Shown: positions 1 through 16,860, counted from the stretch's first letter. The stretch is DNA of 27,477 bases from Candidatus Izemoplasma sp. (GCA_007116105.1 SKJA01000163.1:1-27477); one strand, 5' to 3'. Translations and numbers: made by a program. Notes: generated by a model not told the origin, from the letters alone.

Positions 1-744
1 AACTCAAACTTGCCACCAGGTCAAGAAGGCCACTTAGTGGATTATCAGTATTTGATTGACAACCGTGTCAACTTTGCCTACAACAACCGTCTTGACCGTT
101 CGGATGGCTTTCGTGTAGGAGAATTGGTGCCCTATACGAATTACCGTGGTGAGACCGTCTTGCCCACCGATGTACAATGCCCATCATCCGTGACGAATCG
201 GGACGAAGAAGTCTTCTTAATCACCACCATCGAAGCGTTGATTCGAGCCTTTCCGAATCAATTGTTCACGCTTGAAATTAAGCAATCTGGTGACCTTGGT
301 GGTGAAGCGTTCGAGACGCTGCTGACGTTACTTGACACCTTAAACGAAGAGATTGAAGGCGATTTGTATGGTCGGATTCTCTTGGGAACCTTCCACCGCG
401 ACATCTACGATCGTTTCGTTGAAGCGAAACGCACCACGCACCCTAACTTGCTCTTTTCGCCACAAGAAGATGTCGTCTATCAATACTTCATCTTGCACCA
501 TTTACGTTTGACCCAGTTTTTCAGAGCACCCGTGGCTGCTTTGCAAGTGCCCCAAGCGTCGGGAGGGTTCACCCTTAACACCCCCTTATTTGTGCGCACC
601 GCTCAACGTCACAACATCGCTGTCCAATATTGGACCATCAACCGTGAAGAAGACATGCGCACCTTGATTGAGCTAGGTGTGGATGGCATCATCACAGACC
701 GTGTTGACCTTTTAAGACAAATACTGGATGAATTTGAAGATTAG
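1..744 (+). CDS. Glycerophosphodiester phosphodiesterase (GDPD family), 5'-truncated by the window edge; paralog of 906..1940
   Basis: Frame is open from base 1 (aac tca aac ttg = NSNL, matching NSDL in the paralog). LEIK metal-ligand strand and C-terminal YWTIN...LGVDGIITDR are GDPD motifs. Confidence 0.9.
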   Translation, partial: NSNLPPGQEGHLVDYQYLIDNRVNFAYNNRLDRSDGFRVGELVPYTNYRGETVLPTDVQCPSSVTNRDEEVFLITTIEALIRAFPNQLFTLEIKQSGDLGGEAFETLLTLLDTLNEEIEGDLYGRILLGTFHRDIYDRFVEAKRTTHPNLLFSPQEDVVYQYFILHHLRLTQFFRAPVAALQVPQASGGFTLNTPLFVRTAQRHNIAVQYWTINREEDMRTLIELGVDGIITDRVDLLRQILDEFED

Positions 745-4217: not shown

Positions 4218-5159
4218 ATGTCAACTAAAATTCAGGCGACACCCAATGTAAAACATTTGTGGATTTTATTTGGGGCGCTGTTCGTCTTACTGCTTGGTGC
4301 AGTTTTCCGTTATGGCCCTTACATTCTCGCCATCGCAGCGGTAGCCTACGGTGTCAGCTTATCGTTTGAGGTTTTGATTGCCAAAGCGCGAAAAAAAACA
4401 CTCGATCCAAGCTGGATGATTACGCCACTCATCCTCACCATGCTCGTCCCTCCCACGGCCCCTTTGTGGATGGTTGGTGTGGGCGCAGGCTTTGGTATTT
4501 TCTTTGGTAAATTGATTTTTGGTGGCTATGGAAACAATGTGTTCAACCCAGCTGCGGTAGGCGCTTTGTTTTTAACCGTCTCCTTCCCTGTTCTTATGGC
4601 CACACGTTGGTATTCGCCAGTGAATGGTTGGTTTAACCCAGGCAGTCAAGCCTCGCTCGATGCGATCGCCTCAGCGACGCCACTCATTCAACTGAACGCA
4701 GGGACGTTTAACAGTTCTTTGGTTGATTTATTGCTTGGAGGCACCGCCGGCAGCGTCGGTGACGCGTTTCGTCTTGGCGCCATCATTTTAGGCATCGCTT
4801 TGATTGTGCTTAAAGTCATTGATTGGCGTATTCCAGTTGCCATCATCGGTAGTTTTTTCCTCTTTACGGTACTGGGAAGCTTCATCACCGATCGGGTCGC
4901 AGATCCCATCAACTCCCTTTTCGTGGGTGGGTTAATCTTTGGGGCTTTCTTTATGGCGACAGAACCCGTGACGGCTCCGAAGCTGGCTAAGAGTAAAGTG
5001 TTTTATGGGATTGGGATTGCCTTCATTGTGTTCTTGATTCGTAATTTTGGCGCTTTTCCTGAAGGTGTAATTTTTGCCATCATCATCATGAACGCTGTGG
5101 GGACATTGTTTGATGGCTGGTTTGCTAAACCTAATTTAGATAAGGAGGTGAGCGCATGA
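4218..5159 (+). CDS. nqrB: NqrB/RnfD-family integral membrane subunit (covalent FMN carrier)
   Basis: PPTAPLW, FGKLIFGGYGNNVFNPA, FMN site SATPL, FFMATEPVT, PEGV..AI..MN...LFD. At 313 aa it has RnfD-like length. Confidence 0.9.
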   Translation: MSTKIQATPNVKHLWILFGALFVLLLGAVFRYGPYILAIAAVAYGVSLSFEVLIAKARKKTLDPSWMITPLILTMLVPPTAPLWMVGVGAGFGIFFGKLIFGGYGNNVFNPAAVGALFLTVSFPVLMATRWYSPVNGWFNPGSQASLDAIASATPLIQLNAGTFNSSLVDLLLGGTAGSVGDAFRLGAIILGIALIVLKVIDWRIPVAIIGSFFLFTVLGSFITDRVADPINSLFVGGLIFGAFFMATEPVTAPKLAKSKVFYGIGIAFIVFLIRNFGAFPEGVIFAIIIMNAVGTLFDGWFAKPNLDKEVSA

Positions 5160-5764
5160 ATAAGACAAAACAAATGCTTGTCTTTGTCCTAGCGATGGGC
5201 TTAATTACCTCGTTTTTACTGGTGGGTGTCAGTTTGTTAACCCGTGAACGTATTTTAGCCAACCAACAAGCTGCGCTTCAATCCGCTATTTTACAAGCCA
5301 ATGACATTGCTTTTACGGCGGGTGAAGTCAATGAAATCTTTAATGATCGTATTGAAGTGATTGAGCTTGAAGAAGAAGGTTCAGACACGCCGCTCGTCTT
5401 TTTCCGTCATCCAGCTTCAGGAAACATCAGTTTTCAATTTGAAGGTGGCGGTGTTTGGGGTCCAATCATTGGGGTGATTACCCTTGAAGATGATTTTAAA
5501 ACCATTGTTGAAATCACGATTTTAGAACAAGAAGAGACGCCAGGACTTGGTGGCATCATCACCGAGCGAGCGTACTTAAATAATTATGTGGGAGCACATC
5601 TGTCAGAGTCCATCACCATTTCGCACGATTCTGTGCCGGGTGACCCCAATTACGTCGATGCAATCACTGGTGGAACACGCACCAGTGAACGTTTTGAAAC
5701 CATCTTAAGAACAGCTTATCAGCGCCGCGCCGATGTTTGGCGTACGTTCGCTGAGGAAGAATAG
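5156..5764 (+). CDS. nqrC: NqrC/RnfG-family FMN-binding subunit with N-terminal TM anchor
   Basis: G.GVWGPI.G, EQEETPGLGG, flavinylation-type motif VDAITGGTRTS; ATGA overlap with the nqrB stop. Confidence 0.9.
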   Translation: MNKTKQMLVFVLAMGLITSFLLVGVSLLTRERILANQQAALQSAILQANDIAFTAGEVNEIFNDRIEVIELEEEGSDTPLVFFRHPASGNISFQFEGGGVWGPIIGVITLEDDFKTIVEITILEQEETPGLGGIITERAYLNNYVGAHLSESITISHDSVPGDPNYVDAITGGTRTSERFETILRTAYQRRADVWRTFAEEE

Positions 5765-5773
5765 GAGGGCCAC

Positions 5774-6403
5774 ATGAAACTGATACGCTTACGCTATAAA
5801 AAATGGTATAACATCAGCCGTGATGGCCTCACGACGAACAATCCAATCGCGATTGCGGTGTTAGGGATTTGTTCGGCTTTAGCGGTCACGAACCGCGTTG
5901 ATAATGCCATTGCGATGGGACTTGCGGTGGTGTTCGTGGTGACCATGAGTTCATTGACGGTCTCACTGATTCGAAACTTTATCCCAAGCCGTGTCCGCAT
6001 GGTGACGTATATGGTTATTATTTCTTCGTTTGTGATCATGGTGCAACTGTTTTTAGAAGCGTTTTTCCCACTCATTGCGGCAGCCCTTGGTGCGTTCTTA
6101 GGGTTGATCATCACCAACTGTATTGTCATGGGACGAGCAGAAGCCTTTGCGGTGAAAAATCCCTTGCGCTATACCTTCTTTGATGGGATTGCCAATGGCT
6201 TAGGATACACCTATGTCCTTGTCATCGTCGCGGTGGTTCGTGAACTTCTAGCGTTTGGCACCATCCTCGATGTGCGCATCATGCCTGACACTTGGACAAA
6301 CTGGGTGGCCATGGCACTTGCACCTGGTGGTTTCTTTGTTTTAGGGCTGCTCATTTGGGCTTTAAGAGAACTCACCAACAATTTCGAAACGGTGTCAGAA
6401 TAG
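5774..6403 (+). CDS. nqrD: NqrD (RnfE homolog) membrane subunit
   Basis: NNPIAIAVLGICSALAVT (NqrD-type CSALAVT rather than RnfE CP.LAVT) and LIITNCIVMGRAEAFA; both Fe-S Cys present. Confidence 0.9.
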   Translation: MKLIRLRYKKWYNISRDGLTTNNPIAIAVLGICSALAVTNRVDNAIAMGLAVVFVVTMSSLTVSLIRNFIPSRVRMVTYMVIISSFVIMVQLFLEAFFPLIAAALGAFLGLIITNCIVMGRAEAFAVKNPLRYTFFDGIANGLGYTYVLVIVAVVRELLAFGTILDVRIMPDTWTNWVAMALAPGGFFVLGLLIWALRELTNNFETVSE

Positions 6404-6410
6404 GAGGCTT

Positions 6411-6995
6411 ATGATGGTAGATATCTTTGATCTTTTTATTACCTCGGTACTGACGCAAAACATCGCTTTAACGTTTATCTTAGGGATGTGTCCTTTAATT
6501 GCCATTTCGACCAATGTGAAAAACGCCAAGGGCATGGGGATTGCGGTCATTTTTGTGGTCACCTTAACCGGCATCATCAACTACCCGATTTACCTTCTTT
6601 TAAGGGCGACGGGGACCGAAACGCTTTCCTTGCTTGTGTTCATCACCACGATTGCTGCAACAGTGCAATTTTTAGAGCTCTTTATTGAAAAATATTTCCC
6701 CAAAATGTACAACAGTTTCGGCCTATTTTTACCTTTGATTACGGTAAACTGCGTGGTCTTAGCGGTCTCACTGTTCTTTGTGAATCGTGACTACAACTTC
6801 ATTCAAACCGCGACCTTTTCTTTCGGTGCCGGGATTGGTTGGTTTCTGGCGATTGTCCTTGTGGCGGGCATTCGTGAAAAACTCGCTCAAAACACAGGCA
6901 TTCCACGTGGCTTAGCTGGCCGTGGCATTGTCTTCATTATCTTAGGCATCTTATCGCTTGCGTTTATCGGCTTTACAGGACTTTCAATCTTTTAA
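6411..6995 (+). CDS. nqrE: NqrE (RnfA homolog) membrane subunit
   Basis: QNIALTFILGMCP, FLPLITVNC (NqrE-type TVNC), GIGWFLAIVLVAGIREKL; both Fe-S Cys present. Confidence 0.9.
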   Translation: MMVDIFDLFITSVLTQNIALTFILGMCPLIAISTNVKNAKGMGIAVIFVVTLTGIINYPIYLLLRATGTETLSLLVFITTIAATVQFLELFIEKYFPKMYNSFGLFLPLITVNCVVLAVSLFFVNRDYNFIQTATFSFGAGIGWFLAIVLVAGIREKLAQNTGIPRGLAGRGIVFIILGILSLAFIGFTGLSIF

Positions 6996-7010
6996 GAAGG
7001 ACGTGATCCC

Positions 7011-8096
7011 ATGGATTTACTCTTTATACCTATTATTCTCGTTTCGGTTTTAGTGGTGATCACTTTAATCATTGTGTGGGCTGACAATTTTTTTGGTACG
7101 GCAGGCGAGCGCACGCTTCTTGTCAACAACGAAAAAGAAATTAAAGTCACCGACAGTGACACCGTACTAAACCTACTTACGAAAGAAAAAATCTTCATTC
7201 CTTCCGCCTGTGGTGGAAAGGCAACGTGTGGCTTTTGTAAGGTCCGCGTCACAGAAGGCGGGGGCGACGTTCGCCCGACTGAAGAACCGTTTTTAGATAA
7301 AGAACAAAAAGCGAACAACGTACGTCTGTCTTGCCAAGTTAAAGTACGTGAAAACATTAAGGTTGAGATTCCGAAAAGTCTTCTAGGTGCTTTGGAGTAC
7401 AAAGCGAAAGCCATCAAAGTAGAAGACCTAACCTACGATACGAAGTTGGTGCGCTTTAAACTCATCGAACCCGATACCATGGAGTTCAAACCTGGTCAGT
7501 ATGCGCAAATCAAAGTCCCAGGCATTGAAATCATTCGTGCATACTCCATTGCTTCAGACCCGAACGATCCTCATCACATTGAGTTTATCATCCGTTTAGT
7601 GCCTGGCGGTTTAGCAACCACCTTTGTTCACAAAGCGTTACTTGCGGGTGATGACATCATCATCACAGGACCTTATGGTGATTTCTTCTTAAGAGAAGAG
7701 AGTAAGCGTGACATGGTCTGCATCGCCGGGGGATCAGGTAAAGCGCCCATTCGTTCCATTCTATACCGTCTTCAAGACATGGGGATGCCAAGAAAAGTTC
7801 GCTATTTCTTTGGTGCGAAAGCTGTACGTGACTTGTACTATACGGAAGAGATGCAAGCCATTGCTAAAGCGTTTCCGAACTTTGAGTACATTCCCGCGCT
7901 CTCACATCCGGAAGACACCGACGATTGGAAAGGTGAAACTGGTCTGATTACTGACGTCCTCGACCGCATGACAGGGGATTTAAGTGAAAGTGAAGCCTAC
8001 TTATGTGGCTCACCAGGGATGATTGATGCGTGTATTAAAGTTCTAAAAAAACACGACATAAAAGATGAAAATGTGTTATACGACAAATTTGGTTAA
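7011..8096 (+). CDS. nqrF: NqrF-like NAD(P)H:acceptor oxidoreductase (TM anchor + 2Fe-2S ferredoxin + FAD/NAD FNR domains)
   Basis: N-terminal TM helix; SACGGKATCGFC...RLSCQ; RAYSIAS; GPYGDF; IAGGSGKAPIRS; YLCGSPGM; C-terminal YDKFG. Confidence 0.88.
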   Translation: MDLLFIPIILVSVLVVITLIIVWADNFFGTAGERTLLVNNEKEIKVTDSDTVLNLLTKEKIFIPSACGGKATCGFCKVRVTEGGGDVRPTEEPFLDKEQKANNVRLSCQVKVRENIKVEIPKSLLGALEYKAKAIKVEDLTYDTKLVRFKLIEPDTMEFKPGQYAQIKVPGIEIIRAYSIASDPNDPHHIEFIIRLVPGGLATTFVHKALLAGDDIIITGPYGDFFLREESKRDMVCIAGGSGKAPIRSILYRLQDMGMPRKVRYFFGAKAVRDLYYTEEMQAIAKAFPNFEYIPALSHPEDTDDWKGETGLITDVLDRMTGDLSESEAYLCGSPGMIDACIKVLKKHDIKDENVLYDKFG

Positions 8097-8102
8097 AAAA
8101 AT

Positions 8103-8127
8103 AAGCCACCGCTTGCGGTGGCTTTTT
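8103..8127 (+). terminator. Intrinsic terminator of the nqr-like operon
   Basis: AAGCCACCGC-tt-GCGGTGGCTT plus TTT, 7 nt after the nqrF stop; preceded by an A-rich stretch. Confidence 0.88.
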
Positions 8128-8143
8128 GAGAGGAGCTTTTTGA

Positions 8144-8557
8144 ATGAAACGACTGACCATGATTTTGATGATGCTGTTTGTTTTAATCGTTTCGGGGTGT
8201 ACGCGTCCATCGTCGTTTGAACGGCGCATGGACGATCGTTGGGATGCCATTGAGACTTACATACTGACCGCCGATGGAAACCGTGAAGGGGCTCAGATTA
8301 CGCGCTTTGATTACTTATGTTATACCTTTGAGCTTGAAGGGTTTTTGCCAACGGATATCTGTATGTATTTTGTGAGTGTGACACACCCTATTGACCGAAA
8401 TCGCTTTTGGGTTGTTTCGCATCGTTTTGATGAGGATGACGATAGCTTTGCCCACGATGAACTGGTATCACAAAGCCATTTAGACGCTGAACGTCAAGTG
8501 TTTATGGATTTTCTTGAAGAAAATGACACCGTCTTTATTGCAGGAACAAGAGATTGA
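8144..8557 (+). CDS. Hypothetical lipoprotein
   Basis: GAGAGGAG SD; signal MKRLTMILMMLFVLIVSG-C with lipobox VSGC; acidic mature part with no lysine. Confidence 0.8.
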   Translation: MKRLTMILMMLFVLIVSGCTRPSSFERRMDDRWDAIETYILTADGNREGAQITRFDYLCYTFELEGFLPTDICMYFVSVTHPIDRNRFWVVSHRFDEDDDSFAHDELVSQSHLDAERQVFMDFLEENDTVFIAGTRD

Positions 8558-8574
8558 AAAATTTACATTTTCTC

Positions 8575-8603
8575 TTCACATCGTTTTCAAAGTAAGGTAT
8601 AAT
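8575..8603 (+). promoter_or_regulatory. oppA promoter P1 (sigma70-type)
   Basis: TTCACA (8575-8580), 17-bp spacer, TATAAT (8598-8603). Confidence 0.7.
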
Positions 8604-8612
8604 AGAAAAAAA

Positions 8613-8664
8613 TTCACAAGTTCCACAACTTTTTCAATCAAAATGTTCACAAATTCCACAACTT
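8613..8664 (+). repeat. 19-bp direct repeat x2 with 33-bp period; candidate operator
   Basis: TTCACAAGTTCCACAACTT (8613-8631) and TTCACAAATTCCACAACTT (8646-8664), one mismatch. Confidence 0.8.
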
Positions 8665-8674
8665 GTGGTATAGT
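8646..8674 (+). promoter_or_regulatory. oppA promoter P2 (sigma70-type with extended -10)
   Basis: TTCACA (8646-8651), 17-bp spacer, TATAGT (8669-8674) preceded by TG. Confidence 0.65.
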
Positions 8675-8680
8675 ATCTAT

Positions 8681-8771
8681 AACATCCTTATATAATAGGA
8701 TGTGCTCCTGAGAAGGAGTTTCAACGTTGGTATAAACTGCATAGGTTTTAGAGCGCTAAAAACTTATGTGG
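8681..8771 (+). other. Structured 5' leader of oppA (three consecutive hairpins); possible cis-regulatory RNA
   Basis: ACATCCT/AGGATGT (8682-8703); GCTCCT-GAGA-AGGAGT (8704-8719, GNRA loop); CATAGGTTTTAG/CTAAAAACTTATG (8740-8768). Confidence 0.55.
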
Positions 8772-8818
8772 AATATATAAAAAAACTTGTATTCAATAAA
8801 TGAGAGGAGAAACAAGTA

Positions 8819-11122
8819 ATGAAAAAATTATTATTAGCTTTATCGTTTCTTGTGCTAGTCTTTGGTCTTGCAGCTTGTGGCGAAGATACACCCCCAAGCG
8901 TACCGACTTTATCTGGCGTAGGAAATGCAACTATCACTGTTGGTCAATCATTTGACCCACTCGCGGGTGTCAGTGCCAATGACGCGACAGATGGTAGCTT
9001 AACGTCAGCGATCACTGTAACTGGAACTGTTAACACTGCAGTTGCTGGTACATATACTTTAACGTATAGTGTAACCAACAGTGCAGGGGAAACTCGTACT
9101 GCAACGCGTACGATTACAGTTCAAGCTGTACAGCCTGATCCAGACCCAGACCCAGATCCGGACCCAGATCCAGATCCAGTTGGCGACTTTGTACTCGCCC
9201 AAGGATTCTACGATTTCAAGTTCGCTCCGGTCGATGTTAAGAATGCTTTCTTTGGTGCCGCTGAACGCTGGTTGCTTCAAACAGGCGCAGGGGGAATTCC
9301 GATTTTCGCGAACTCTACCTTCAGCTTATTTAGCTCCCGTATTCAGTTACCAGTAGAAAACTTCGTACCAGTCATGGGCTTTGGTACTGGCTTTGCTACC
9401 ATGAGTGCTGATGACTCAACTGTTCGTATGGACGATGGTCGTCCAGGTAATGCAGGCGAATACACCTACCGTGGTGCATTCATCTTCTCACCTACGACTT
9501 TCAACCAATGGATCGCAGATGACTCAGTAAGTTCTGACGTAAACGTATGGTTCTTAGATTCTTTATATTACTTCGCGTTTAATGATGAGTTCACTGGATT
9601 CGATTTATTACCTTCAATGGCTGCTAGCATGCCTATCCCAATTGACAGTGAAGTCATTCTTGGTACTGTTGCTGCAAACACTTGGCGTATTGAACTCCGT
9701 GAAGATTTAGAGTGGTTCTACCACCCAAGCATTAACACTTCAGCCTTCCCAGAAGGTCATGAACGTATTACTGCTGAAGACTTCATTGGAACGTATCGTT
9801 TAGCGTTAGAAGAAGGTTGGTTCCGTGCGATTTCAGGCGGCGGCGACTTCTTAAATGCTGCACAACGTATCGTGGGTGCTCGTGAGTTCGTAGACGGCGA
9901 AGTCGAGTTCGACGAAGTTGGTTTACGTGTCATTGATGAGTTCACGATTGAATTCGAATTTGTTCCTCTAATGTCTGAATGGGACGTATCTTACTGGTTA
10001 TCAAGTATGGTTATGTCTCCAATTAACTTACACCTTCATGAAGTTGTAGGCGCAAGCTATGGTACTTCTCATACAACAATCGCTGCTCACGGCCGTATGT
10101 TTATTGATTTCTATGAGCCAGACAGCATCGTTCGTTTAAGAGAAAATCCAAACTTCCACAGCCCAAATAGAACGTTCTTCACAGGCTTAAACTTCCAAAT
10201 TTTACCAGATCCAGACTTTGCCTTTGAAACATTCTTAGCCGGTGGTCTTGACATCGGTGGCGTACCAACTGCGCGTTTTGATGAGTTCTCATCTCACCCA
10301 GAGTTACGCTTTACACCAGGTGCTACTACGTTCCGTATGAACTTGAACGCATTAAAAACACCTGAAGCTCAAGAAGCAGCATTCCCAGGTTCTGGTTTCA
10401 CTCCTGAGCCAATCATTGGTTACCAAGATTTCCGTTTAGCAATGTACTTTGCCTTAGACCGTGAAGAAATTGCAAGAGATCTTATGAGAACTGCTGAACC
10501 ACAAATGTTCCACTTCACTCCTGCTTACTTAGTAGATCCACAAGGTGGTATCTCCTTCCGTGACACTGAGTTTGGTCCACTTGTTGGTGAAGGCTTCTCA
10601 AGATCAACCTTCGGATTCAACGAAGATGCTGCACGTGCACTTTGGATGCAAGCTATTAATCAAGCTGTTGCTGATGGCTTCTACAGCCCAGGCGATGTCA
10701 TTGAAATTGAACTTGTCATTCAAGCCGCTTCACCTGCTCAAGCATTGCTTGGCGACTGGGTTGAAGCACAGTTCGAAAGACTCTTTGTGGACACTGCCCG
10801 CAACATTCGCGTTGAAATCACCGTGACTGCTGCACCGTTCCCACAAAACTACTTTAACTACATCCTTCCAGGTACATTTGACCTTGGAATGGGCGGTATT
10901 TCTGGTGGTACATTAGACGCAGCTGGCTTCTTATCACAATACCGTGCTGATAACGCTGGTGGCTTCACCCTTAACTGGGGTCTTGACACTAACGTCGCGG
11001 AAATCCCTGTAACGTATACCATTGCAGGCGAAACCTTCCACGAAATTTGGTCATTTGATGCGATTCACCGTGCATTAACTGCTGGTGTCAACGTTGTTGA
11101 TGGCCGCGAAGTAGTCGAATAA
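8819..11122 (+). CDS. oppA: OppA-like (SBP family 5) substrate-binding lipoprotein with N-terminal Ig-like (DUF5011-type) domain and Pro-Asp linker; apparently circularly permuted
   Basis: Lipobox LAAC; Ig-like PTLSGV...FDPLAGVSANDATDG...GTYTLTYSVTNSAG...ATRTITV; SBP5 motifs WRIELREDLEWF, ITAEDF, RVIDEFTIEF, RENPNF, DFRLAMYFALDREEI; first gene of a BCDF operon. Confidence 0.9.
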   Translation: MKKLLLALSFLVLVFGLAACGEDTPPSVPTLSGVGNATITVGQSFDPLAGVSANDATDGSLTSAITVTGTVNTAVAGTYTLTYSVTNSAGETRTATRTITVQAVQPDPDPDPDPDPDPDPVGDFVLAQGFYDFKFAPVDVKNAFFGAAERWLLQTGAGGIPIFANSTFSLFSSRIQLPVENFVPVMGFGTGFATMSADDSTVRMDDGRPGNAGEYTYRGAFIFSPTTFNQWIADDSVSSDVNVWFLDSLYYFAFNDEFTGFDLLPSMAASMPIPIDSEVILGTVAANTWRIELREDLEWFYHPSINTSAFPEGHERITAEDFIGTYRLALEEGWFRAISGGGDFLNAAQRIVGAREFVDGEVEFDEVGLRVIDEFTIEFEFVPLMSEWDVSYWLSSMVMSPINLHLHEVVGASYGTSHTTIAAHGRMFIDFYEPDSIVRLRENPNFHSPNRTFFTGLNFQILPDPDFAFETFLAGGLDIGGVPTARFDEFSSHPELRFTPGATTFRMNLNALKTPEAQEAAFPGSGFTPEPIIGYQDFRLAMYFALDREEIARDLMRTAEPQMFHFTPAYLVDPQGGISFRDTEFGPLVGEGFSRSTFGFNEDAARALWMQAINQAVADGFYSPGDVIEIELVIQAASPAQALLGDWVEAQFERLFVDTARNIRVEITVTAAPFPQNYFNYILPGTFDLGMGGISGGTLDAAGFLSQYRADNAGGFTLNWGLDTNVAEIPVTYTIAGETFHEIWSFDAIHRALTAGVNVVDGREVVE
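9134..9178 (+). repeat. Coding hexamer repeat CCN-GAY x7, encoding the (Pro-Asp)7-Pro linker
   Basis: cct gat cca gac cca gac cca gat ccg gac cca gat cca gat cca. Confidence 0.95.
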
Positions 11123-11141
11123 TTTCCTGATTTAAGTTAAC

Positions 11142-11190
11142 AATGCTTTTAGAGCCACTCAAGACTCTTGGGTGGCTCTATATAAGCATT
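11142..11190 (+). other. Long intercistronic stem-loop 1 (oppA-oppB)
   Basis: TAGAGCCACTCAAG-act-CTTGGGTGGCTCTA (14 pairs incl. one G-U), extended by AATGCTT/AAGCATT. Confidence 0.85.
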
Positions 11191-11194
11191 TAAT

Positions 11195-11249
11195 TTAGGT
11201 TATTTGCTAAAATAAGTCATCACGGCTTATTTTAGCGAATTGAACTTAA
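11195..11249 (+). other. Long intercistronic stem-loop 2 (oppA-oppB)
   Basis: TTGCTAAAATAAGTC-atcac-GGCTTATTTTAGCGA (15 pairs incl. G-U), extended by TTAGGTT/AACTTAA. Confidence 0.85.
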
Positions 11250-11272
11250 TAAAAAAATAAAGAGGTGTTTTT

Positions 11273-12355
11273 ATGATTCGTTACTCCTTGATTAGAACCT
11301 TGTGGGTGTTCATCATTCTCGCGACGGTTTTATCGATCAACTTTATACTCCTTAAAAACGCACCACAACTACCCCCACCAACGGAAGAAGGACGCTCCAT
11401 TTATTATTCGCGTCAAGTTTCTGATGGGTTTATGACAGTGCGTATCGAACGCGATCCAGATTTAGTACGTGAAGCTCGTGAAAGTAGACCTACCTTCTTA
11501 AATCGACTTCCAAGAAATTCGGATTTTTTCCATGAAGGTGATCAAATCCGCATTTTTGAACCCGTTCCATTGATTCAACAATATTTTAGTTGGGTCAACA
11601 ACATTGTGACTGAATGGAACTGGGGTGTTTCTACGTGGGTTCAACCCAACGTTGAAGTGTTCGAGATTCTCATGTCCCGTATTCCGGTTACCATAAGGCT
11701 CAATCTTGTGGCTTTATTTTTCTATATTCCTATTGGATTTGCTTTAGGAATTCTAGCCGCATTAAGAAAGAATACATTGGTTGATAACTTTATATCAGTC
11801 TTTGTTATGGTTATGATTTCACTGCCAAGTTTCGTTATTATGACATTCTTGGTGTTGATTTTCGCCTTTGGACTTGGCTGGCTGCCCACATCCTTCCCCT
11901 CGAGTGACGTCACGGGTGCTGTCCAGTATACGGCCTTAGTATTACCCGTTTTAGGGCTGTCTTTTGGGGCGATTGCTTCACTCACACGGACCTCACGGGC
12001 AGAGTTAACGGAAGTTTTAACTTCAGAGTTTCTCTTGCTTGCAAGAACGAAGGGACTCTCACAAACTCAAGCTGTCTTGAGACATGCTTTGAGAAACTCC
12101 ATGGTTCCACTTGTACCCGGAATTATTGGTTCATTCGTTGGTTTACTGAGTGGTTCGGTCATCATTGAGTTAATTTATGCCATTCCTGGCACAGGGCGTA
12201 TTTTTATTCGTGCGATGACTCAAAACCAATACGACTTTAACCTAATTCTCGCGATTACCGCTTTCTATACCGTGGTTGGCTTATTCGCCATTTTATTGGT
12301 TGACTTATCGTATGGATTCGTAGATCCGCGTATTCGAATGGGGGCTAGAAAATAA
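11273..12355 (+). CDS. oppB: Oligopeptide-type ABC permease OppB
   Basis: RIPVTIRL, GILAALRKNT..D, SLPSFV, EAA loop EFLLLARTKGL....LRHALRNS..P, GSVIIELIYAIPGTG; enlarged first external loop. Confidence 0.93.
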   Translation: MIRYSLIRTLWVFIILATVLSINFILLKNAPQLPPPTEEGRSIYYSRQVSDGFMTVRIERDPDLVREARESRPTFLNRLPRNSDFFHEGDQIRIFEPVPLIQQYFSWVNNIVTEWNWGVSTWVQPNVEVFEILMSRIPVTIRLNLVALFFYIPIGFALGILAALRKNTLVDNFISVFVMVMISLPSFVIMTFLVLIFAFGLGWLPTSFPSSDVTGAVQYTALVLPVLGLSFGAIASLTRTSRAELTEVLTSEFLLLARTKGLSQTQAVLRHALRNSMVPLVPGIIGSFVGLLSGSVIIELIYAIPGTGRIFIRAMTQNQYDFNLILAITAFYTVVGLFAILLVDLSYGFVDPRIRMGARK

Positions 12356-14244
12356 TGCAAATTCATCAAAAACTAGATAAAGTAGACAAGTCTTCCTTTG
12401 AGTTCGTCCAACGGGATCATAAAATCTATGATAAAAAGTTTGAAACGAAACCCATTGGGTATTTTAAAGATGCGATGATTCGTTTTACAAAAAACAAAAC
12501 AAACGTTATCGCTAGTATCATTCTCTTTACTTTGATTATGCTTTCGATTTTTATCCCAATCTTTACAAGTCGTAACTATACAACATTAGAGCCAAGACTT
12601 ACCTTGTTACCACCACGCATTCCAATCGTTGAGCGTTTTGGTATCTTTGACGGCACACGCATCATTCCAGGTCAAGAAGTCGACATTTCTACCATTGATC
12701 CTGAAACAGGCATTGGTCTTCCATTTAACACGAACTTTCCACATGAGTTCATCATTCCTGGAAGTGTCACCAATGAAAGTGTTCCATGTACCAGTACACA
12801 AGAATCTTGTTTGGGCGGGACAGTACGGATCACATTGCGTGAACAGTCTTTAACGACCTCTTACCGGACGCCAACGCTCCTTAACTTTACGCTTTCACAG
12901 GCAACTCCTCACATTTTAACCATTGATTTAAACGATATTTCTGAAACTGCAACCTTAAATGTTTTAATGCGTCGTGATTTCGTGTCTGATTATGAAGTCA
13001 TTGCAAGCATAACTGAAGCGGATGTTCACACGTTTAACTTGGTAGACCTTTTAGGTGAAAGCACCTTCTTATCCACCGAAATGAGACTCCAAGTGGTGTC
13101 AACTGAAATTGCAGGCTTTGTTGAGTTTAACAGCATTGACATTCGTCAACAAGGCGCAGAAGACCCACAACATCGTTTTGAAGGCCGTAACTTAGCACTC
13201 TTTCCACTGGTCTCAGGCGCGGGTGCCTCACGCATCACGCGAAGTGACGGTCAACTTCTTTTATCGACGTTCCGCTTCGACCCTTACGCGCGTGCGTTAG
13301 GTCCTTGGCGTCGTCCTACCTTCTCGGCTGAAGAGTTTTATGCCTTAATGGAAGCGAACGAAGCGACTTGTGGCATCGTTCCAACCAATCCAGTGGGCCA
13401 TAACTTTCCAGAAGGTTGCCCCGTCTTAGAAGTACGTGGGCGCACTGAGAGTGTTATCGTTGGTGGCATTGAGCGATACTCTTATGATTTAACCCTTGAT
13501 TTTGCGACCTTTAGAGGATTTGACACAACTCCGTTTTTCTTCTTTGGCACTACGAATGGTGGACGTGATTTATTTGCGTTAACTTGGGTCGCCTTAAGAA
13601 CCAGTTTATTGATTGGTGTTGTGGCTTCAGCCATTAACATTTCGATCGGCGTCGTTTATGGAGCCATCTCGGGGTACTATGGCGGTAAAGTTGACATCTT
13701 AATGGAACGTTTCAGTGAGATCATTGCACGGATTCCATTCCTTGTTGTCTTAGCCATCATGGTGGCCTATTTTGGACCAGGCATTACAACACTCATTGTC
13801 GTCTTGATTGTGTCGGGATGGATTGGGGTGGCCAGTGTCACCCGGACTCAGTTCTATCGCTTTAAAGGACGTGAGTATGTCTTAGCTTCAAGAACACTTG
13901 GTGCAAAAGACTCACGACTCATTTTCCGTCACATTTTACCCAACGGCATCGGAACCATCATCACCGCAAGTGTCTTGATGATTCCCCTTGTCATCTTCAC
14001 AGAATCAACCTTGTCATTCCTAGGCTTCGGTATTGGCCATGGGCAATCGTTTAGCATTGGTCCCTTTGAGTTCTCCGGCGTTTCCATTGGTGTTTTATTG
14101 GCGGATGGACGTGAAGAGATGTTAAACAACCCACATTTAACGTATTTCCCTGCGATTATTATTTCTATTTTGATGATCACATTCAACATGTTCGGTAACG
14201 CCTTACGCGATGCCTTCAATCCATCCTTAAGGGGGTCTGAATAA
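12355..14244 (+). CDS. oppC: Oligopeptide-type ABC permease OppC with a ~300-aa extracytoplasmic insertion
   Basis: KDAMIRFTKNK N-terminal helix; FGTTNGGRDLF; GAISGYYGGKVD..MER; REYVLASRTLGA...IFRHILPN; ESTLSFLGFG; NMFGNALRDAFNP; TAATG overlap with oppB. Confidence 0.93.
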   Translation: MQIHQKLDKVDKSSFEFVQRDHKIYDKKFETKPIGYFKDAMIRFTKNKTNVIASIILFTLIMLSIFIPIFTSRNYTTLEPRLTLLPPRIPIVERFGIFDGTRIIPGQEVDISTIDPETGIGLPFNTNFPHEFIIPGSVTNESVPCTSTQESCLGGTVRITLREQSLTTSYRTPTLLNFTLSQATPHILTIDLNDISETATLNVLMRRDFVSDYEVIASITEADVHTFNLVDLLGESTFLSTEMRLQVVSTEIAGFVEFNSIDIRQQGAEDPQHRFEGRNLALFPLVSGAGASRITRSDGQLLLSTFRFDPYARALGPWRRPTFSAEEFYALMEANEATCGIVPTNPVGHNFPEGCPVLEVRGRTESVIVGGIERYSYDLTLDFATFRGFDTTPFFFFGTTNGGRDLFALTWVALRTSLLIGVVASAINISIGVVYGAISGYYGGKVDILMERFSEIIARIPFLVVLAIMVAYFGPGITTLIVVLIVSGWIGVASVTRTQFYRFKGREYVLASRTLGAKDSRLIFRHILPNGIGTIITASVLMIPLVIFTESTLSFLGFGIGHGQSFSIGPFEFSGVSIGVLLADGREEMLNNPHLTYFPAIIISILMITFNMFGNALRDAFNPSLRGSE

Positions 14245-15719
14245 TGGCTGATAAAAACATTAAGTTATCGGTACAAAACTTGTCAGTATCGTTTCGGACA
14301 ACTCAAGGGTTTGTACGGGCTGTACGCGATGTAAGTTTTGACTTATATCAAGGTGAAACGCTTGCCGTGGTGGGTGAATCTGGTAGTGGGAAATCCGTAA
14401 CTTCAAGAGCCATCATGGGAATTTTAGAGAAAAACTCCGTGACGGACTCAGGAAAAATTATTTATGAAGATCAAGACATTTTAAAAATTCGTGAAGAAGA
14501 TTTCCATAAGTTACGTGGGAACAAAATAGGCATGATCTTCCAAGATCCCCTTTCAAGCTTAAACCCAATCATGCGCATTGGTAAGCAAATCACCGAAGGC
14601 ATGATCGTCAACGGTAAACATTTGAAGAACCGTAAAAAAGAACTTTCTCATGCTCAACGTCAAACCTACTTAAACCTCATTGACAATAAAGCCAAAGACG
14701 TTGCAGATTTTAAAGCAAAGAAAAAAGAACTGAAAGCATTAAAAGAAACGGAAGAACTTGCGTTACTTCAAAGTAAACACTCAGAAAAACTGGCACAATA
14801 TGCGCCCGCAATAAAAGAAGCTAGGGCGGCTTATAAAGCAGCAAAATCGAACGCTAAAAAACAAGTTGCTAAAGAATGGGCTGAAGAAAAAGCAAAATAT
14901 GCCCAAAAGATTTCAGCTGTTAAAGCCAACATGTCTTCCGCTTCACCCGATCAAAAGAAAGAACTCAAACATCAAGTTGAGGAACTTCAAGAGCAACTTC
15001 GTCGGTATAAAAAAGTCACTCAACGCGAAGCACGTGAACGCGCCGTTGAAGTTATGGCGGAGGTTGGTATTCCCGAGCCTGAAAAACGTTTACGTCAATA
15101 TCCCTTCCAGTTTTCTGGGGGCATGCGTCAACGTATCGTTATTGCCATTGCGCTGACCGCAAACCCAGACTTACTGATTTGTGATGAGCCAACAACGGCT
15201 TTAGACGTAACCATTCAAGCACAAATTCTCGAGTTGATTAAACGCTTAAAAGAAGAACGTGACTTAACCGTTATCTTCATCACCCATGACCTTGGTGTTG
15301 TGGCCAACATGGCAGATCGCGTTGCGGTCATGTATGCTGGTAAAGTGGTTGAAATTGGACGTTCAGAAGAAGTTTTCTACAATCCAAAACATCCTTACAC
15401 CTGGGCTCTCCTTTCTTCGATGCCAGACCTTTCAAGTACCTCACGTCTATCTTCGATTCCAGGAACCCCACCCAACATGTTGTTCCCACCCAAAGGCGAT
15501 GCCTTTGCGGATCGTAACCAATATGCGATGAAAATAGATTTTGAAGAGCAACCACCGTACTTTAAAGTCAGTGACACACATTATGCGGCCACGTGGTTAC
15601 TCCATGAAAATGCACCGAAAGTGACCATGCCTCAAATCATTCAAGACCGTATTGATGCCATGAAAGAACGCACCAAAGCCCGAATTGATCAACAAGATAC
15701 TGAAAGTGGGGTGACGTAA
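14244..15719 (+). CDS. oppD: Oligopeptide ABC ATPase OppD with a ~130-aa Lys-rich helical insertion
   Basis: GESGSGKS, IFQDPLSSLNP, YPFQFSGGMRQR, DEPTTALDV, ITHDLGVV, NPKHPYT, PKGDAFA.R; TAATG overlap. Confidence 0.95.
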   Translation: MADKNIKLSVQNLSVSFRTTQGFVRAVRDVSFDLYQGETLAVVGESGSGKSVTSRAIMGILEKNSVTDSGKIIYEDQDILKIREEDFHKLRGNKIGMIFQDPLSSLNPIMRIGKQITEGMIVNGKHLKNRKKELSHAQRQTYLNLIDNKAKDVADFKAKKKELKALKETEELALLQSKHSEKLAQYAPAIKEARAAYKAAKSNAKKQVAKEWAEEKAKYAQKISAVKANMSSASPDQKKELKHQVEELQEQLRRYKKVTQREARERAVEVMAEVGIPEPEKRLRQYPFQFSGGMRQRIVIAIALTANPDLLICDEPTTALDVTIQAQILELIKRLKEERDLTVIFITHDLGVVANMADRVAVMYAGKVVEIGRSEEVFYNPKHPYTWALLSSMPDLSSTSRLSSIPGTPPNMLFPPKGDAFADRNQYAMKIDFEEQPPYFKVSDTHYAATWLLHENAPKVTMPQIIQDRIDAMKERTKARIDQQDTESGVT

Positions 15720-15720
15720 A

Positions 15721-16860
15721 ATGGCAGCAACACAAGAAACTCCGATTTTAAGTGTTCGCAATTTACGTCAACACTTCAAAAGCGGATTTGGTAAGAACAA
15801 AATGGTAGTACGCGCTGTGGACGATGTCAGTTTTGACATTTACAAAGGCGAAGTCTTTGGTCTAGTAGGTGAGTCGGGTTGTGGTAAAACCACCACAGGC
15901 CGTTCAGTTATTAAACTGTATGAACCCACCGATGGTGAAGTCTATTTCATGGGCGAGCGCATCTCGGCTGGCGTTCAATCGATTAAAGACCAAATTAAAC
16001 TTGAACGCAAACAAGCAGCTGCAAAAATCAAAGAACTCTCACAACAAAAAAGTGCCGCAAGTGACTCTGAGAAGAGTGTCATTGATGAAAAGATTCAAGC
16101 AATTGAATTAGAGCGGGATGCCATCATCAAAGATTTAAAAATGGACATTCCTAAACGTAAAGCGGACACAACCAAAAACAACAAAGAACTCATGAAGCGC
16201 ATGCAAATGATTTTCCAAGATCCGATTGCGTCTTTGAACCCTCGGATGACAGTAAAAGAAATCATCGCAGAAGGCTTACGAATCGCCGGTGAAAAGAGTG
16301 ACAAGGTCATCATTGAACGTGTGAACTCTGTTCTTGAAACGGTTGGTTTATTGCCTGAGCACGCCAGTCGTTACCCACATGAGTTTAGTGGTGGACAACG
16401 TCAACGTATCGGAATTGCCCGTGCGCTTGTCGTAAACCCTGAGTTTATCATTGCCGATGAGCCCATCAGTGCGCTCGACGTTTCCATTCAAGCGCAAGTC
16501 ATTAACTTACTCAACGATTTACGTCAAGAGTTTGGTATTACGATTATGTTCATTGCGCATGACTTATCGGTTGTTAAGTACTTCTCAGACCGTATTGGTG
16601 TTATGTATTATGGCAAACTGGTCGAGTTGGCAGATAAAGACGAGCTCTTTAAAAACCCACTGCATCCTTATACGAAGTCCTTACTTTCAGCGGTACCTTT
16701 ACCAGATCCGCAGTATGAAAAAGGCCGTAAACGGATTAAGTACGACCCATCGATTCATGATTATTCACAACATTTACCAGAACTTCATGAAATTAAGCCC
16801 GGACACTTCATTTACGCAAACGACGCCGAAGTAGAGCAGTATAAGAAAGAAATAAAATAA
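15721..16860 (+). CDS. oppF: Oligopeptide ABC ATPase OppF with a ~70-aa helical insertion
   Basis: [66 protein letters not shown]. Confidence 0.95.

What the first reader, a model, noticed from the sequence alone, without database searches (positions are those of the whole stretch)
9206..11122. OppA appears circularly permuted: the canonical C-terminal ~55 residues sit in front of the canonical N-terminus
Seen: before the usual start of the SBP5 fold (EYTYRGAFIFSPTTFNQWIADDSVSSDV...DSLY at 9458, equivalent to QTLVRNNGSEVQSLDPH...FEGL of enterobacterial OppA) lies KNAFFGAAERWLLQTGAGGIPIFANSTFSLFSSRIQLP (from 9239). This aligns by eye with the canonical C-terminal RAELYTKAEQQLDKDSAIVPVYYYVNARLVKPWVGG. 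The actual C-terminus (DAAGFLSQYRADN...WSFDAIHRAL...) ends without any R..y..AE..L....IP.y segment. Established: in OppA both termini lie in domain I, so joining them with a linker (here SADDSTVRMDDGRPGNAG) is feasible, and the moved segment includes one of the two hinge strands. Inference: a natural permutant with new termini in domain III, so the lipid/Ig tether attaches to the other lobe, which could change docking and ligand range.
Basis: partly seen in the sequence, partly recalled or inferred. Interest (0 to 1): 0.8.

Follow-up and report, generated by a model that had tools for sequence, protein, structure and literature searches.

The report
Circularly permuted OppA-type peptide-binding lipoprotein
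The peptide-catching receptor of this bacterium's oligopeptide importer has the usual OppA fold, but its last ~70 residues are encoded at the front of the chain. This natural circular permutation is shared by hundreds of relatives in wall-less bacteria and some Clostridia, and I found no description of it in the papers I could search.

Summary
The gene at 8819-11122 (767 aa) encodes a lipoprotein: signal peptide and lipobox, one Ig-like domain, a (PD)n linker, then a ~640-aa family-5 binding-protein core. It is the first gene of an oppABCDF operon.

BLASTP against a normal-order relative (P0190) gives two swapped matches. Window residues 207-756 match P0190 23-588 (E 2e-77). Window residues 132-200 match P0190 589-656 (E 3e-10).

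A confident AlphaFold model (pLDDT 93) aligns with solved OppA/DppA chains only up to about OppA residue 457 of 517. Its first 72-95 residues stay unmatched. A model of a normal-order sister protein aligns to the last residue of the same chains.

The rearranged form makes up at least 119 of the best 150 clusters at 50% identity. Hosts include Izemoplasmatales, Acholeplasma granularum, Fusibacter and Oceanirhabdus.

The chain order has changed more than once within the family. One relative is cut at a different point, and one has moved the tail back behind a later-acquired domain.

Effects on function (tether on the other lobe, docking, ligand range) remain untested. Earlier notes of this scan report other family-5 permutations on other DNA.

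The parts
8819..8878 (+). Signal peptide with lipobox (MKKLLLALSFLVLVFGLAAC; lipidated Cys20)
   Evidence: Read directly from the sequence. It is 43% identical over 30 residues to the signal peptide of the normal-order relative P0190 (third match).
8906..9121 (+). Ig-like surface domain (residues 30-101)
   Evidence: Pfam PF16403, E 1.8e-19. It also matches the Ig-like domains of chitinase 60 and bacillolysin in the PDB.
9134..9178 (+). (PD)7P spacer between the Ig-like domain and the binding-protein core
   Evidence: Read directly from the sequence.
9212..9418 (+). Relocated tail (residues 132-200). It is homologous to the last ~65-70 residues of normal-order family-5 binding proteins: an 18-residue helix (9230-9283), a beta hairpin carrying the conserved 'IP' (9296-9331), and the following domain-I stretch.
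   Evidence: BLASTP against P0190 589-656, E 3e-10. hhalign against the C-tails of normal-order relatives, E 2.8e-13, and against sister alignment A3, E 4.5e-5. AlphaFold shows H19-36, E41-45 and E48-52 with pLDDT 91-96. It is the best-conserved part of the protein (68% mean column identity against 54% overall).
9419..9436 (+). Joint (TVRMDD) linking the old C-terminus to the old N-terminus
   Evidence: This is the gap between the two BLASTP matches to P0190.
9437..11086 (+). Remainder of the family-5 binding-protein fold in normal order (residues 207-756). It runs from the residues that follow the lipidated Cys in normal-order relatives to the helix WSFDAIHRALTAG. The Pfam SBP_bac_5 match lies at 9680-10957.
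   Evidence: BLASTP against P0190 23-588, E 2e-77. PF00496 scores 73 bits against a cut-off of 32.4. VIA-align gives Z 24-25 to DppE, OppA and MppA, with model 72/95..639 matched to chain 1..~457.
11087..11122 (+). New C-terminal add-on (VNVVDGREVVE) and stop codon. The 'VxVxDGxE' pattern is shared by permutants with this cut and is absent at the continuous junction of P0190.
   Evidence: Flank comparison of 41 permutants. AlphaFold predicts a strand at model residues 638-641.
11273..16860 (+). oppB (11273-12355), oppC (12355-14244, with a ~340-aa extracytoplasmic insert), oppD (14244-15719) and oppF (15721-16860): the transporter that this receptor presumably serves.
   Evidence: Pfam BPD_transp_1, OppC_N, ABC_tran and oligo_HPY. 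The same operon sits next to a 55%-identical relative.

Best explanation
The gene encodes the lipid-anchored substrate receptor of the OppBCDF ABC importer encoded downstream. It has the three-domain cluster C (family 5, OppA/DppA) fold, but the chain is circularly permuted.

The segment that normally ends the protein is an 18-residue helix in domain III, the hairpin that crosses the hinge, and the last domain-I stretch. Here it comes first, directly after the lipobox, the Ig-like domain and the PD spacer. A 6-residue joint then leads into what is normally the mature N-terminus. The chain ends in domain III, one helix before the point where it began.

The fold, the cleft and the two hinge crossings are kept. 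The membrane tether now enters at the domain-III lobe instead of domain I, and the hinge hairpin is made first instead of last.

Shown: the rearrangement, its conservation and its operon context. Inferred: peptide binding, docking on OppBC, origin by tandem duplication, in-frame fusion and loss of both outer parts, and any functional effect of the moved tether.
For: Sequence evidence:
- There are two swapped BLASTP matches to the normal-order relative P0190. They abut exactly at P0190 588/589 and use its last residue.
- The same pattern appears at 46-51% identity between P0187 and P0190.
- The N-segment HMM hits the extreme C-terminus of 17 normal-order relatives in the same class.
- hhalign of the N-segment against those C-tails gives E 2.8e-13.

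Structure evidence:
- The AlphaFold model has pLDDT 93.2 and pTM 0.87, with the N-segment at pLDDT 91-96.
- VIA-align matches model 72..639 to 1ola 1..457 of 517, and model 96..639 to 1dpp 1..454 of 507.
- The control model of the normal-order sister (L076) matches 1ola 11..517 and 1dpp 1..507, with about 50 more aligned residues.
- In the sister the order of secondary-structure elements is hairpin, 9-residue helix, 18-residue helix, hairpin. This equals the window protein's C-terminal elements followed by its N-terminal elements.

Spread:
- All 120 listed homologs cover 97-100% of the core, including the N-segment.
- 119 of the best 150 clusters at 50% identity are permuted.
- Members occur in isolate genomes: Acholeplasma granularum, Fusibacter tunisiensis, Oceanirhabdus and Liberiplasma.

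Context: oppBCDF lies directly downstream.
Against: - I could not read model coordinates or run a non-sequential superposition. The spatial equivalence of the N-segment to OppA 458-517 therefore rests on two steps: homology to the sister's tail, and the sister's structural alignment to OppA.
- Both structures are predictions.
- No ligand or transport data exist.
- By profile alignment, the Asp that binds the peptide amino group in DppA/OppA is Gly here and Ser in the family consensus. The ligand or binding mode may therefore differ from that of enterobacterial OppA.
- No duplicated intermediate carrying both copies of the tail was found.
Confidence: 0.92

Rival explanations
1. There is no permutation. 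Residues ~130-200 form an extra, unrelated N-terminal domain, and the protein is a normal-order OppA that is C-terminally shortened or has a very divergent tail.
For: Pairwise BLASTP of the segment against E. coli OppA is not significant (E 91). hmmscan against NCBIfam finds nothing.
Against: The segment matches the C-terminal tails of normal-order relatives at E 3e-10 to 4e-12 pairwise and E 2.8e-13 by profile. The protein's own C-terminus aligns only up to OppA residue 457. A normal-order sister model aligns to residue 517.
Confidence: 0.02
2. The arrangement is an assembly or binning artefact of this 70%-complete metagenome-assembled genome.
For: The genome is fragmented: 183 contigs and 70.7% completeness.
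Against: The same order is found in hundreds of independent assemblies. These include closed chromosomes and isolate genomes. A 146-kb contig carries the same nqr-opp synteny. The ORF is uninterrupted and the N-segment is its most conserved part.
Confidence: 0.01
3. The permutation is real but functionally neutral. It would be a frozen accident of a tandem-duplication and fusion event, and the receptor would work exactly like a normal-order OppA.
For: The fold and operon are unchanged. The normal-order sister proteins also head oppABCDF operons with enlarged OppC and OppD. Both orders occur in one genome (G186).
Against: The chain order changed at least three times in the family: a different cut in P0187, and a back-permutation in P0237 behind an acquired domain. 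This is more than a single accident, though it could also reflect a mutational bias of tandem oppA arrays. No functional data exist either way.
Confidence: 0.45
4. The permuted order is ancestral for this clade. On this view the normal-order relatives nested in it (P0190, P0237) are secondary reversions, not survivors of the ancestral order.
For: All 40 permutants with this cut share the same termini, including the C-terminal 'VxVxDGxE' add-on. In P0237 the tail sits behind the C-terminal extension domain that is typical of its permuted nearest relatives (48.7% identity over core plus extension). P0190 and P0237 nest inside the permuted clade with SH-aLRT 98-99.
Against: The junction of P0190 is continuous and resembles that of the outgroup sister family (GE[FY]A.AS), so for P0190 retention cannot be told from reversion. 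Recombination between co-resident paralogs is not excluded. The tree used the quick search only.
Confidence: 0.5

Closest known systems
OppA of Salmonella/E. coli (PDB 1OLA, 1B52, 3TCF) and MppA (3O9P, 4TOZ)
   Same: It has the same three-domain cluster C fold (VIA-align Z ~24, 442-450 aligned residues) and a PF00496 match. It is the first gene of an oppABCDF operon.
   Different: The chain order differs: the equivalent of OppA ~455-517 comes first. Identity is only 14-17%. It is lipid-anchored through an Ig-like domain. The core is ~640 aa with several inserts. The position of the amino-group-binding Asp is Gly.
Bacillus subtilis DppE and OppA (PDB 8AZB, 8AY0, 8ARN, 8ARE) and pneumococcal AliD/AmiA/AliB (8QLC, 8A42, 8QLJ)
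   Same: These are the best structural matches (Z 25.1 for 8AZB; Foldseek E 1.4e-24 for 8QLC). They are Gram-positive lipoprotein receptors for peptides.
   Different: All have the normal order. Their last ~55-70 residues have no sequential counterpart in the window protein.
Normal-order sister family of ~800-830-aa lipoproteins (L076 protein; members named Anaeroplasmataceae, Clostridia, Christensenellaceae, Lachnoclostridium)
   Same: It falls in the same 100%-supported clade in the core tree. Its tail is homologous. It has the same operon type with enlarged OppC and OppD.
   Different: The tail is at the C-terminus. The model aligns end to end with OppA and DppA. There is no Ig-like domain at the N-terminus.
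Other natural family-5 permutants noted by this scan on other DNA (archaeal, Anaerolineae, Actinomycetota, Clostridia, GisD-like)
   Same: Same fold family and the same kind of rearrangement, according to AI notes that I did not verify.
   Different: They come from different lineages, and mostly have other break points according to those notes. I had no sequences with which to compare them.
Mycoplasma hominis OppA (P100), a peptide-binding lipoprotein and ecto-ATPase (PMC3179953)
   Same: It is a Mollicutes OppA lipoprotein that heads an opp operon.
   Different: I could not test whether it is permuted. The paper describes conserved regions and Walker motifs but no change of chain order. No Walker motif was looked for here.

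Membership tests
Pfam SBP_bac_5 / cluster C substrate-binding proteins (OppA/DppA type) | Significant match to PF00496 above the gathering score | tested here: met
   73 bits against a cut-off of 32.4, residues 288-713, profile positions 18-365 of 368.
Pfam SBP_bac_5 / cluster C substrate-binding proteins (OppA/DppA type) | Three-domain fold superposable on solved OppA/DppA/DppE | tested here: met
   VIA-align Z 20-25 with 420-470 aligned residues. Foldseek E down to 1.4e-24. The model has pLDDT 93.2.
Pfam SBP_bac_5 / cluster C substrate-binding proteins (OppA/DppA type) | Canonical chain order, with the domain-I strand first and the helix plus hinge strand plus domain-I tail last | tested here: not met
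   The BLASTP matches to P0190 are swapped. The structural alignment stops at OppA 457 of 517, whereas the sister control reaches 517.
Pfam SBP_bac_5 / cluster C substrate-binding proteins (OppA/DppA type) | Encoded with OppB/C permeases and OppD/F ATPases | tested here: met
   BPD_transp_1 twice, OppC_N, and ABC_tran plus oligo_HPY twice, directly downstream. The same holds in a relative.
Pfam SBP_bac_5 / cluster C substrate-binding proteins (OppA/DppA type) | Binds oligopeptides in the inter-lobe cleft | not testable with these tools
   Only inferred, from the fold and the operon.
Pfam SBP_bac_5 / cluster C substrate-binding proteins (OppA/DppA type) | Asp that salt-bridges the peptide alpha-amino group (DppA D408, OppA D419) | tested here: inconclusive
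   In the hhalign alignment, DppA precursor D436 pairs with Gly578 of the core (Ser in the family consensus). Overall identity is ~15%, so the register is uncertain.
Natural circular permutants | Two significant alignments to a homolog in swapped order that together cover both proteins, with the same fold | tested here: met
   P0001 207-756 matches P0190 23-588 (E 2e-77) and P0001 132-200 matches P0190 589-656 (E 3e-10). The fold is shared.
Bacterial lipoproteins | Signal peptide ending in a lipobox L-[AS]-[GA]-C | tested here: met
   Residues 17-20 are LAAC, after a hydrophobic stretch and MKK. No lipoprotein predictor was run.

The most novel reading that the evidence does not exclude
This OppA clade is a natural series of circular shifts. 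Tandem oppA copies would repeatedly fuse and be re-cut, giving the tail-first form seen here, a second form cut one helix earlier (P0187), and forms returned to tail-last (P0237, perhaps P0190). Selection would act on which lobe carries the membrane tether, that is, on how a surface-anchored receptor of wall-less or thin-walled bacteria is presented to OppBC and its large OppC ectodomain.
Probability: 0.3. Interest if true: 0.75.

Novelty: new variant of a known kind. Interest (0 to 1): 0.62.

Why it matters
Substrate-binding proteins are textbook examples of a conserved hinge-bending fold and are widely used as biosensor scaffolds.

- **A natural test of tolerance.** Here one of the two hinge-crossing segments and the last helix are made first, and the membrane tether enters the opposite lobe. 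This shows which connections of the OppA fold can be opened and closed.
- **Permissive sites for engineering.** The break lies in the loop at OppA ~455-458, and the joint is only 6 residues. These are ready-made sites for engineered permutants and domain insertions.
- **Annotation.** Pfam's 'Middle' model hides the rearrangement, so these proteins are filed as ordinary family-5 proteins.
- **Experimental comparison.** Both orders occur at up to 51% identity, sometimes in one genome. The effect of tether position on docking and uptake could therefore be compared directly. At least one cultured host exists (Acholeplasma granularum).

Tried and rejected
- **HMM of the family against E. coli OppA:** it finds only the middle of the protein and is too remote to see the tail.
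- **hhalign against 9 E. coli paralogs only:** it hits the right place but is not significant (E 0.49). It improved to P 0.002 with 37 sequences.
- **hmmscan of ten N-segments against NCBIfam:** no family-5 hit.
- **BLASTP of the N-segment against E. coli OppA:** nothing.
- **Search for duplication intermediates carrying the tail at both ends:** none among 120 homologs, 31 loci, 141 representatives and 120 sister proteins.
- **C-terminal extensions of longer family members:** they show only weak Ig/fn3-like hits and no second binding-protein copy.
- **Single origin of the permuted order:** the first tree supported it. It was rejected after P0190 and P0237 were added.
- **Non-sequential structure superposition:** not possible, because model coordinates are not exposed. 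I used a normal-order sister model as a control instead.
- **Literature searches for a prior description:** nothing relevant found. The M. hominis OppA paper does not mention chain order.

Full report
**The gene.** The ORF 8819..11122 (+) encodes 767 residues. It has these parts, in order:
- a signal peptide ending in the lipobox LAAC (Cys20);
- an Ig-like surface domain (PF16403, residues 30-101, E 1.8e-19);
- a (PD)7P spacer (106-120);
- a ~640-residue region with a Pfam SBP_bac_5 match at 288-713 (73 bits, cut-off 32.4).

Directly downstream lie oppB, oppC (629 aa, with ~340 extra residues between OppC_N and the permease core), oppD and oppF. The genome holds no other family-5 gene in its 1.08 Mb, at 70.7% completeness.

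**Checking the observation.** It is also not seen by hmmscan against NCBIfam or by a family HMM against E. coli OppA.

At profile level it appears and is specific. With a profile of 37 normal-order proteins (8 E. coli paralogs plus 29 from the same class), the only notable hhalign hit of the N-terminal 95 residues is the C-terminal helix plus strand. That hit covers columns 484-522 of 549 (P 0.002); the next hit has P 0.33. The protein's own last 89 residues map upstream of that region and do not cover it.

**Structure.**
- An AlphaFold2 model of residues 120-767, built on 70 family sequences, has pLDDT 93.2 and pTM 0.87. It begins with a short strand, an 18-residue helix (model 19-36) and a hairpin (41-45, 48-52), all at pLDDT 91-96.
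- VIA-align against PDB chains gives Z 20-25 to DppE, OppA, MppA, AliD and DppA. In every case the model's first 72-95 residues and the chain's last ~50-70 residues stay unaligned. Examples are model 72..639 to 1ola 1..457 of 517, and model 96..639 to 1dpp 1..454 of 507.
- As a control I modelled a normal-order sister protein (L076 ORF, 827 aa, pLDDT 89.9). It aligns with the same chains to their last residue (1ola 11..517, 1dpp 1..507), with about 50 more aligned residues.
- The sister's C-terminal elements are hairpin, 9-residue helix, 18-residue helix, hairpin. These equal the window protein's C-terminal elements followed by its N-terminal ones.

**Decisive sequence evidence.**
- An HMM of the N-terminal segment hits the extreme C-terminus of 17 family-5 proteins from genomes of the same class (domain E 3e-3 to 9e-11).
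- hhalign of the segment profile against those tails gives Prob 98%, E 2.8e-13 over 64 columns (query 17-81). Against the sister alignment A3 it gives E 4.5e-5, at columns 760-813 of 840.
- A normal-order relative found in the representative search, P0190 (656 aa, a lipoprotein), gives the textbook pattern with the window protein. Residues 207-756 match P0190 23-588 (E 2e-77), and residues 132-200 match P0190 589-656 (E 3e-10). The segment alone gives E 4e-12.
- The two matches abut at P0190 588/589 and use its last residue.
- It follows that the moved piece is residues 132-200 and the joint is TVRMDD (201-206). GRPGNAGE corresponds to the residues just after the lipidated Cys of the normal-order protein.
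- By the published OppA domain limits (established knowledge: domain III = 271-486), the break at about OppA 455-458 lies in domain III. The moved piece contains the 486/487 hinge crossing.

**Spread.**
- All 120 listed homologs cover 97-100% of the core including the N-segment, whether they have none, one or several N-terminal Ig-like domains, and some have C-terminal extensions.
- The exhaustive representative search finds 853 clusters at 50% identity with E <= 0.001. Of the 141 newly listed among the best 150, 119 are permuted, 3 have the normal order and 19 are fragments.
- Named hosts include Izemoplasmatales, Acholeplasmataceae (Acholeplasma granularum ATCC 19168), Liberiplasma polymorphum, Fusibacter tunisiensis, Oceanirhabdus, Acidaminobacter and Epulonipiscioides.
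- The N-segment HMM hits 102 of 399 genomes of the class, counting both orders. One genome (G186) holds both orders.
- A 55%-identical relative has the same nqrBCDEF-oppABCDF neighbourhood. The normal-order sister also heads an oppABCDF operon.

**History.**
- On a tree built from the core only (the moved segment left out; outgroup E. coli paralogs and normal-order Bacilli proteins), permuted and normal-order 'large' OppAs form one 100%-supported clade. In the first sample the 34 permuted rows were one clade (SH-aLRT 97).
- Adding P0190, P0237 and others changed this. P0190 and P0237 nest inside the permuted clade (98-99), and an AU test rejects permuted monophyly (p 2e-92). The group was named after seeing the tree, and the trees used the quick search.
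- Forty of 41 inspected permutants share the same cut, a conserved N-terminal 'G.Y.FKFA' and a C-terminal 'VxVxDGxE' add-on. This argues for one origin of this cut.
- P0237 consists of the core plus the C-terminal extension domain of its permuted nearest relatives (48.7% identity to L067 146-831), followed by the tail (50% identity to L067 67-135). It looks like a secondary shift back.
- P0187, 51% identical to P0190, is cut one helix earlier, so the WSYD helix has also moved to the front.
- No protein with the tail at both ends was found. Duplication and fusion is the standard model for such shifts and fits these patterns, but it is inference.

**Function.** I infer a lipid-anchored peptide receptor that closes on its ligand and docks on OppBC. 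This rests on the fold, the nearest solved structures (all peptide or peptide-like binders) and the operon.

The permutation keeps two hinge crossings. It moves the tether to the domain-III lobe and puts the hinge hairpin first in synthesis and export. Whether this matters is untested.

The moved segment and joint are the best-conserved part of the protein (68% against 54% mean column identity), with invariant E, G, P, R, DD and G positions. By profile alignment, the Asp that holds the peptide amino group in DppA is Gly here (the register is uncertain).

**Novelty.** Four full-text searches found no description of a permuted OppA or family-5 binding protein. A 2026 survey of circular permutations does not mention binding proteins. 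The M. hominis OppA paper does not discuss chain order.

Earlier notes of this scan report other family-5 permutations on other DNA. None overlaps this protein by sequence. I could not compare break points with them.

Noticed in passing
P0187 (700 aa; metagenomic relative), compared with P0190: This is a second, different circular permutation in the same clade. P0187 36-115 matches P0190 576-655 (46% identity) and P0187 99-668 matches P0190 10-569 (51%). The cut lies one helix earlier than in the window protein, so the WSYD helix has also moved to the front.
   Followed up: partly
P0237 (911 aa; locus L177 331-3066), compared with L067: This relative has a normal-like order, but its tail sits behind the ~110-150-aa C-terminal extension domain that is typical of its permuted nearest relatives. 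It looks like a secondary shift back from the permuted form. It also heads an opp operon.
   Followed up: partly
P0190 (656 aa; locus L176, a single 2.2-kb contig): This normal-order lipoprotein nests inside the permuted clade (SH-aLRT 98), and its nearest relative is a permutant (P0187, 51%). It is known from one short contig only, so whether it is a retention, a reversion or a recombinant stays open.
   Followed up: partly
window 12355-14244 (oppC) and 14244-15719 (oppD): OppC has about 340 extra residues between OppC_N (36-87) and the permease core (432-626). In OppD the 137-position ABC_tran profile spans residues 28-318, which implies a large insert. Relatives share this, with OppC of 631, 515 and 663 aa.
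   Followed up: no
window 4218-16860, compared with L174: The neighbourhood nqrB-like, FMN_bind, two Rnf-Nqr genes, NqrF-like and then oppABCDF is conserved in a relative whose OppA is 55% identical (GCA_018400875.1).
   Followed up: no
AlphaFold DB cluster hits A0A847B4Z8, M0NSV6, I3ZVB1 and A0A1M3LIY5: These ~550-650-aa family-5 proteins align with the model from residue 14-16, the start of the moved helix, rather than from ~73-97 as normal-order proteins do. They may be further permutants that begin at the same helix. TM scores are only 0.54-0.71.
   Followed up: no
window 9446-9454 and family alignments A1/A2: The moved tail and joint carry invariant residues (E30, G40, P42, R55, D79, D80, G91 in core numbering). 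By profile alignment, the canonical Asp for the peptide amino group is Gly or Ser. The invariant DD in 'MSADDS' has no assigned role.
   Followed up: no
window 8819-11122: The precursor has only 5 Lys in 767 residues, two of them in the signal peptide. This agrees with another first-stage note on Lys-poor ectodomains.
   Followed up: no
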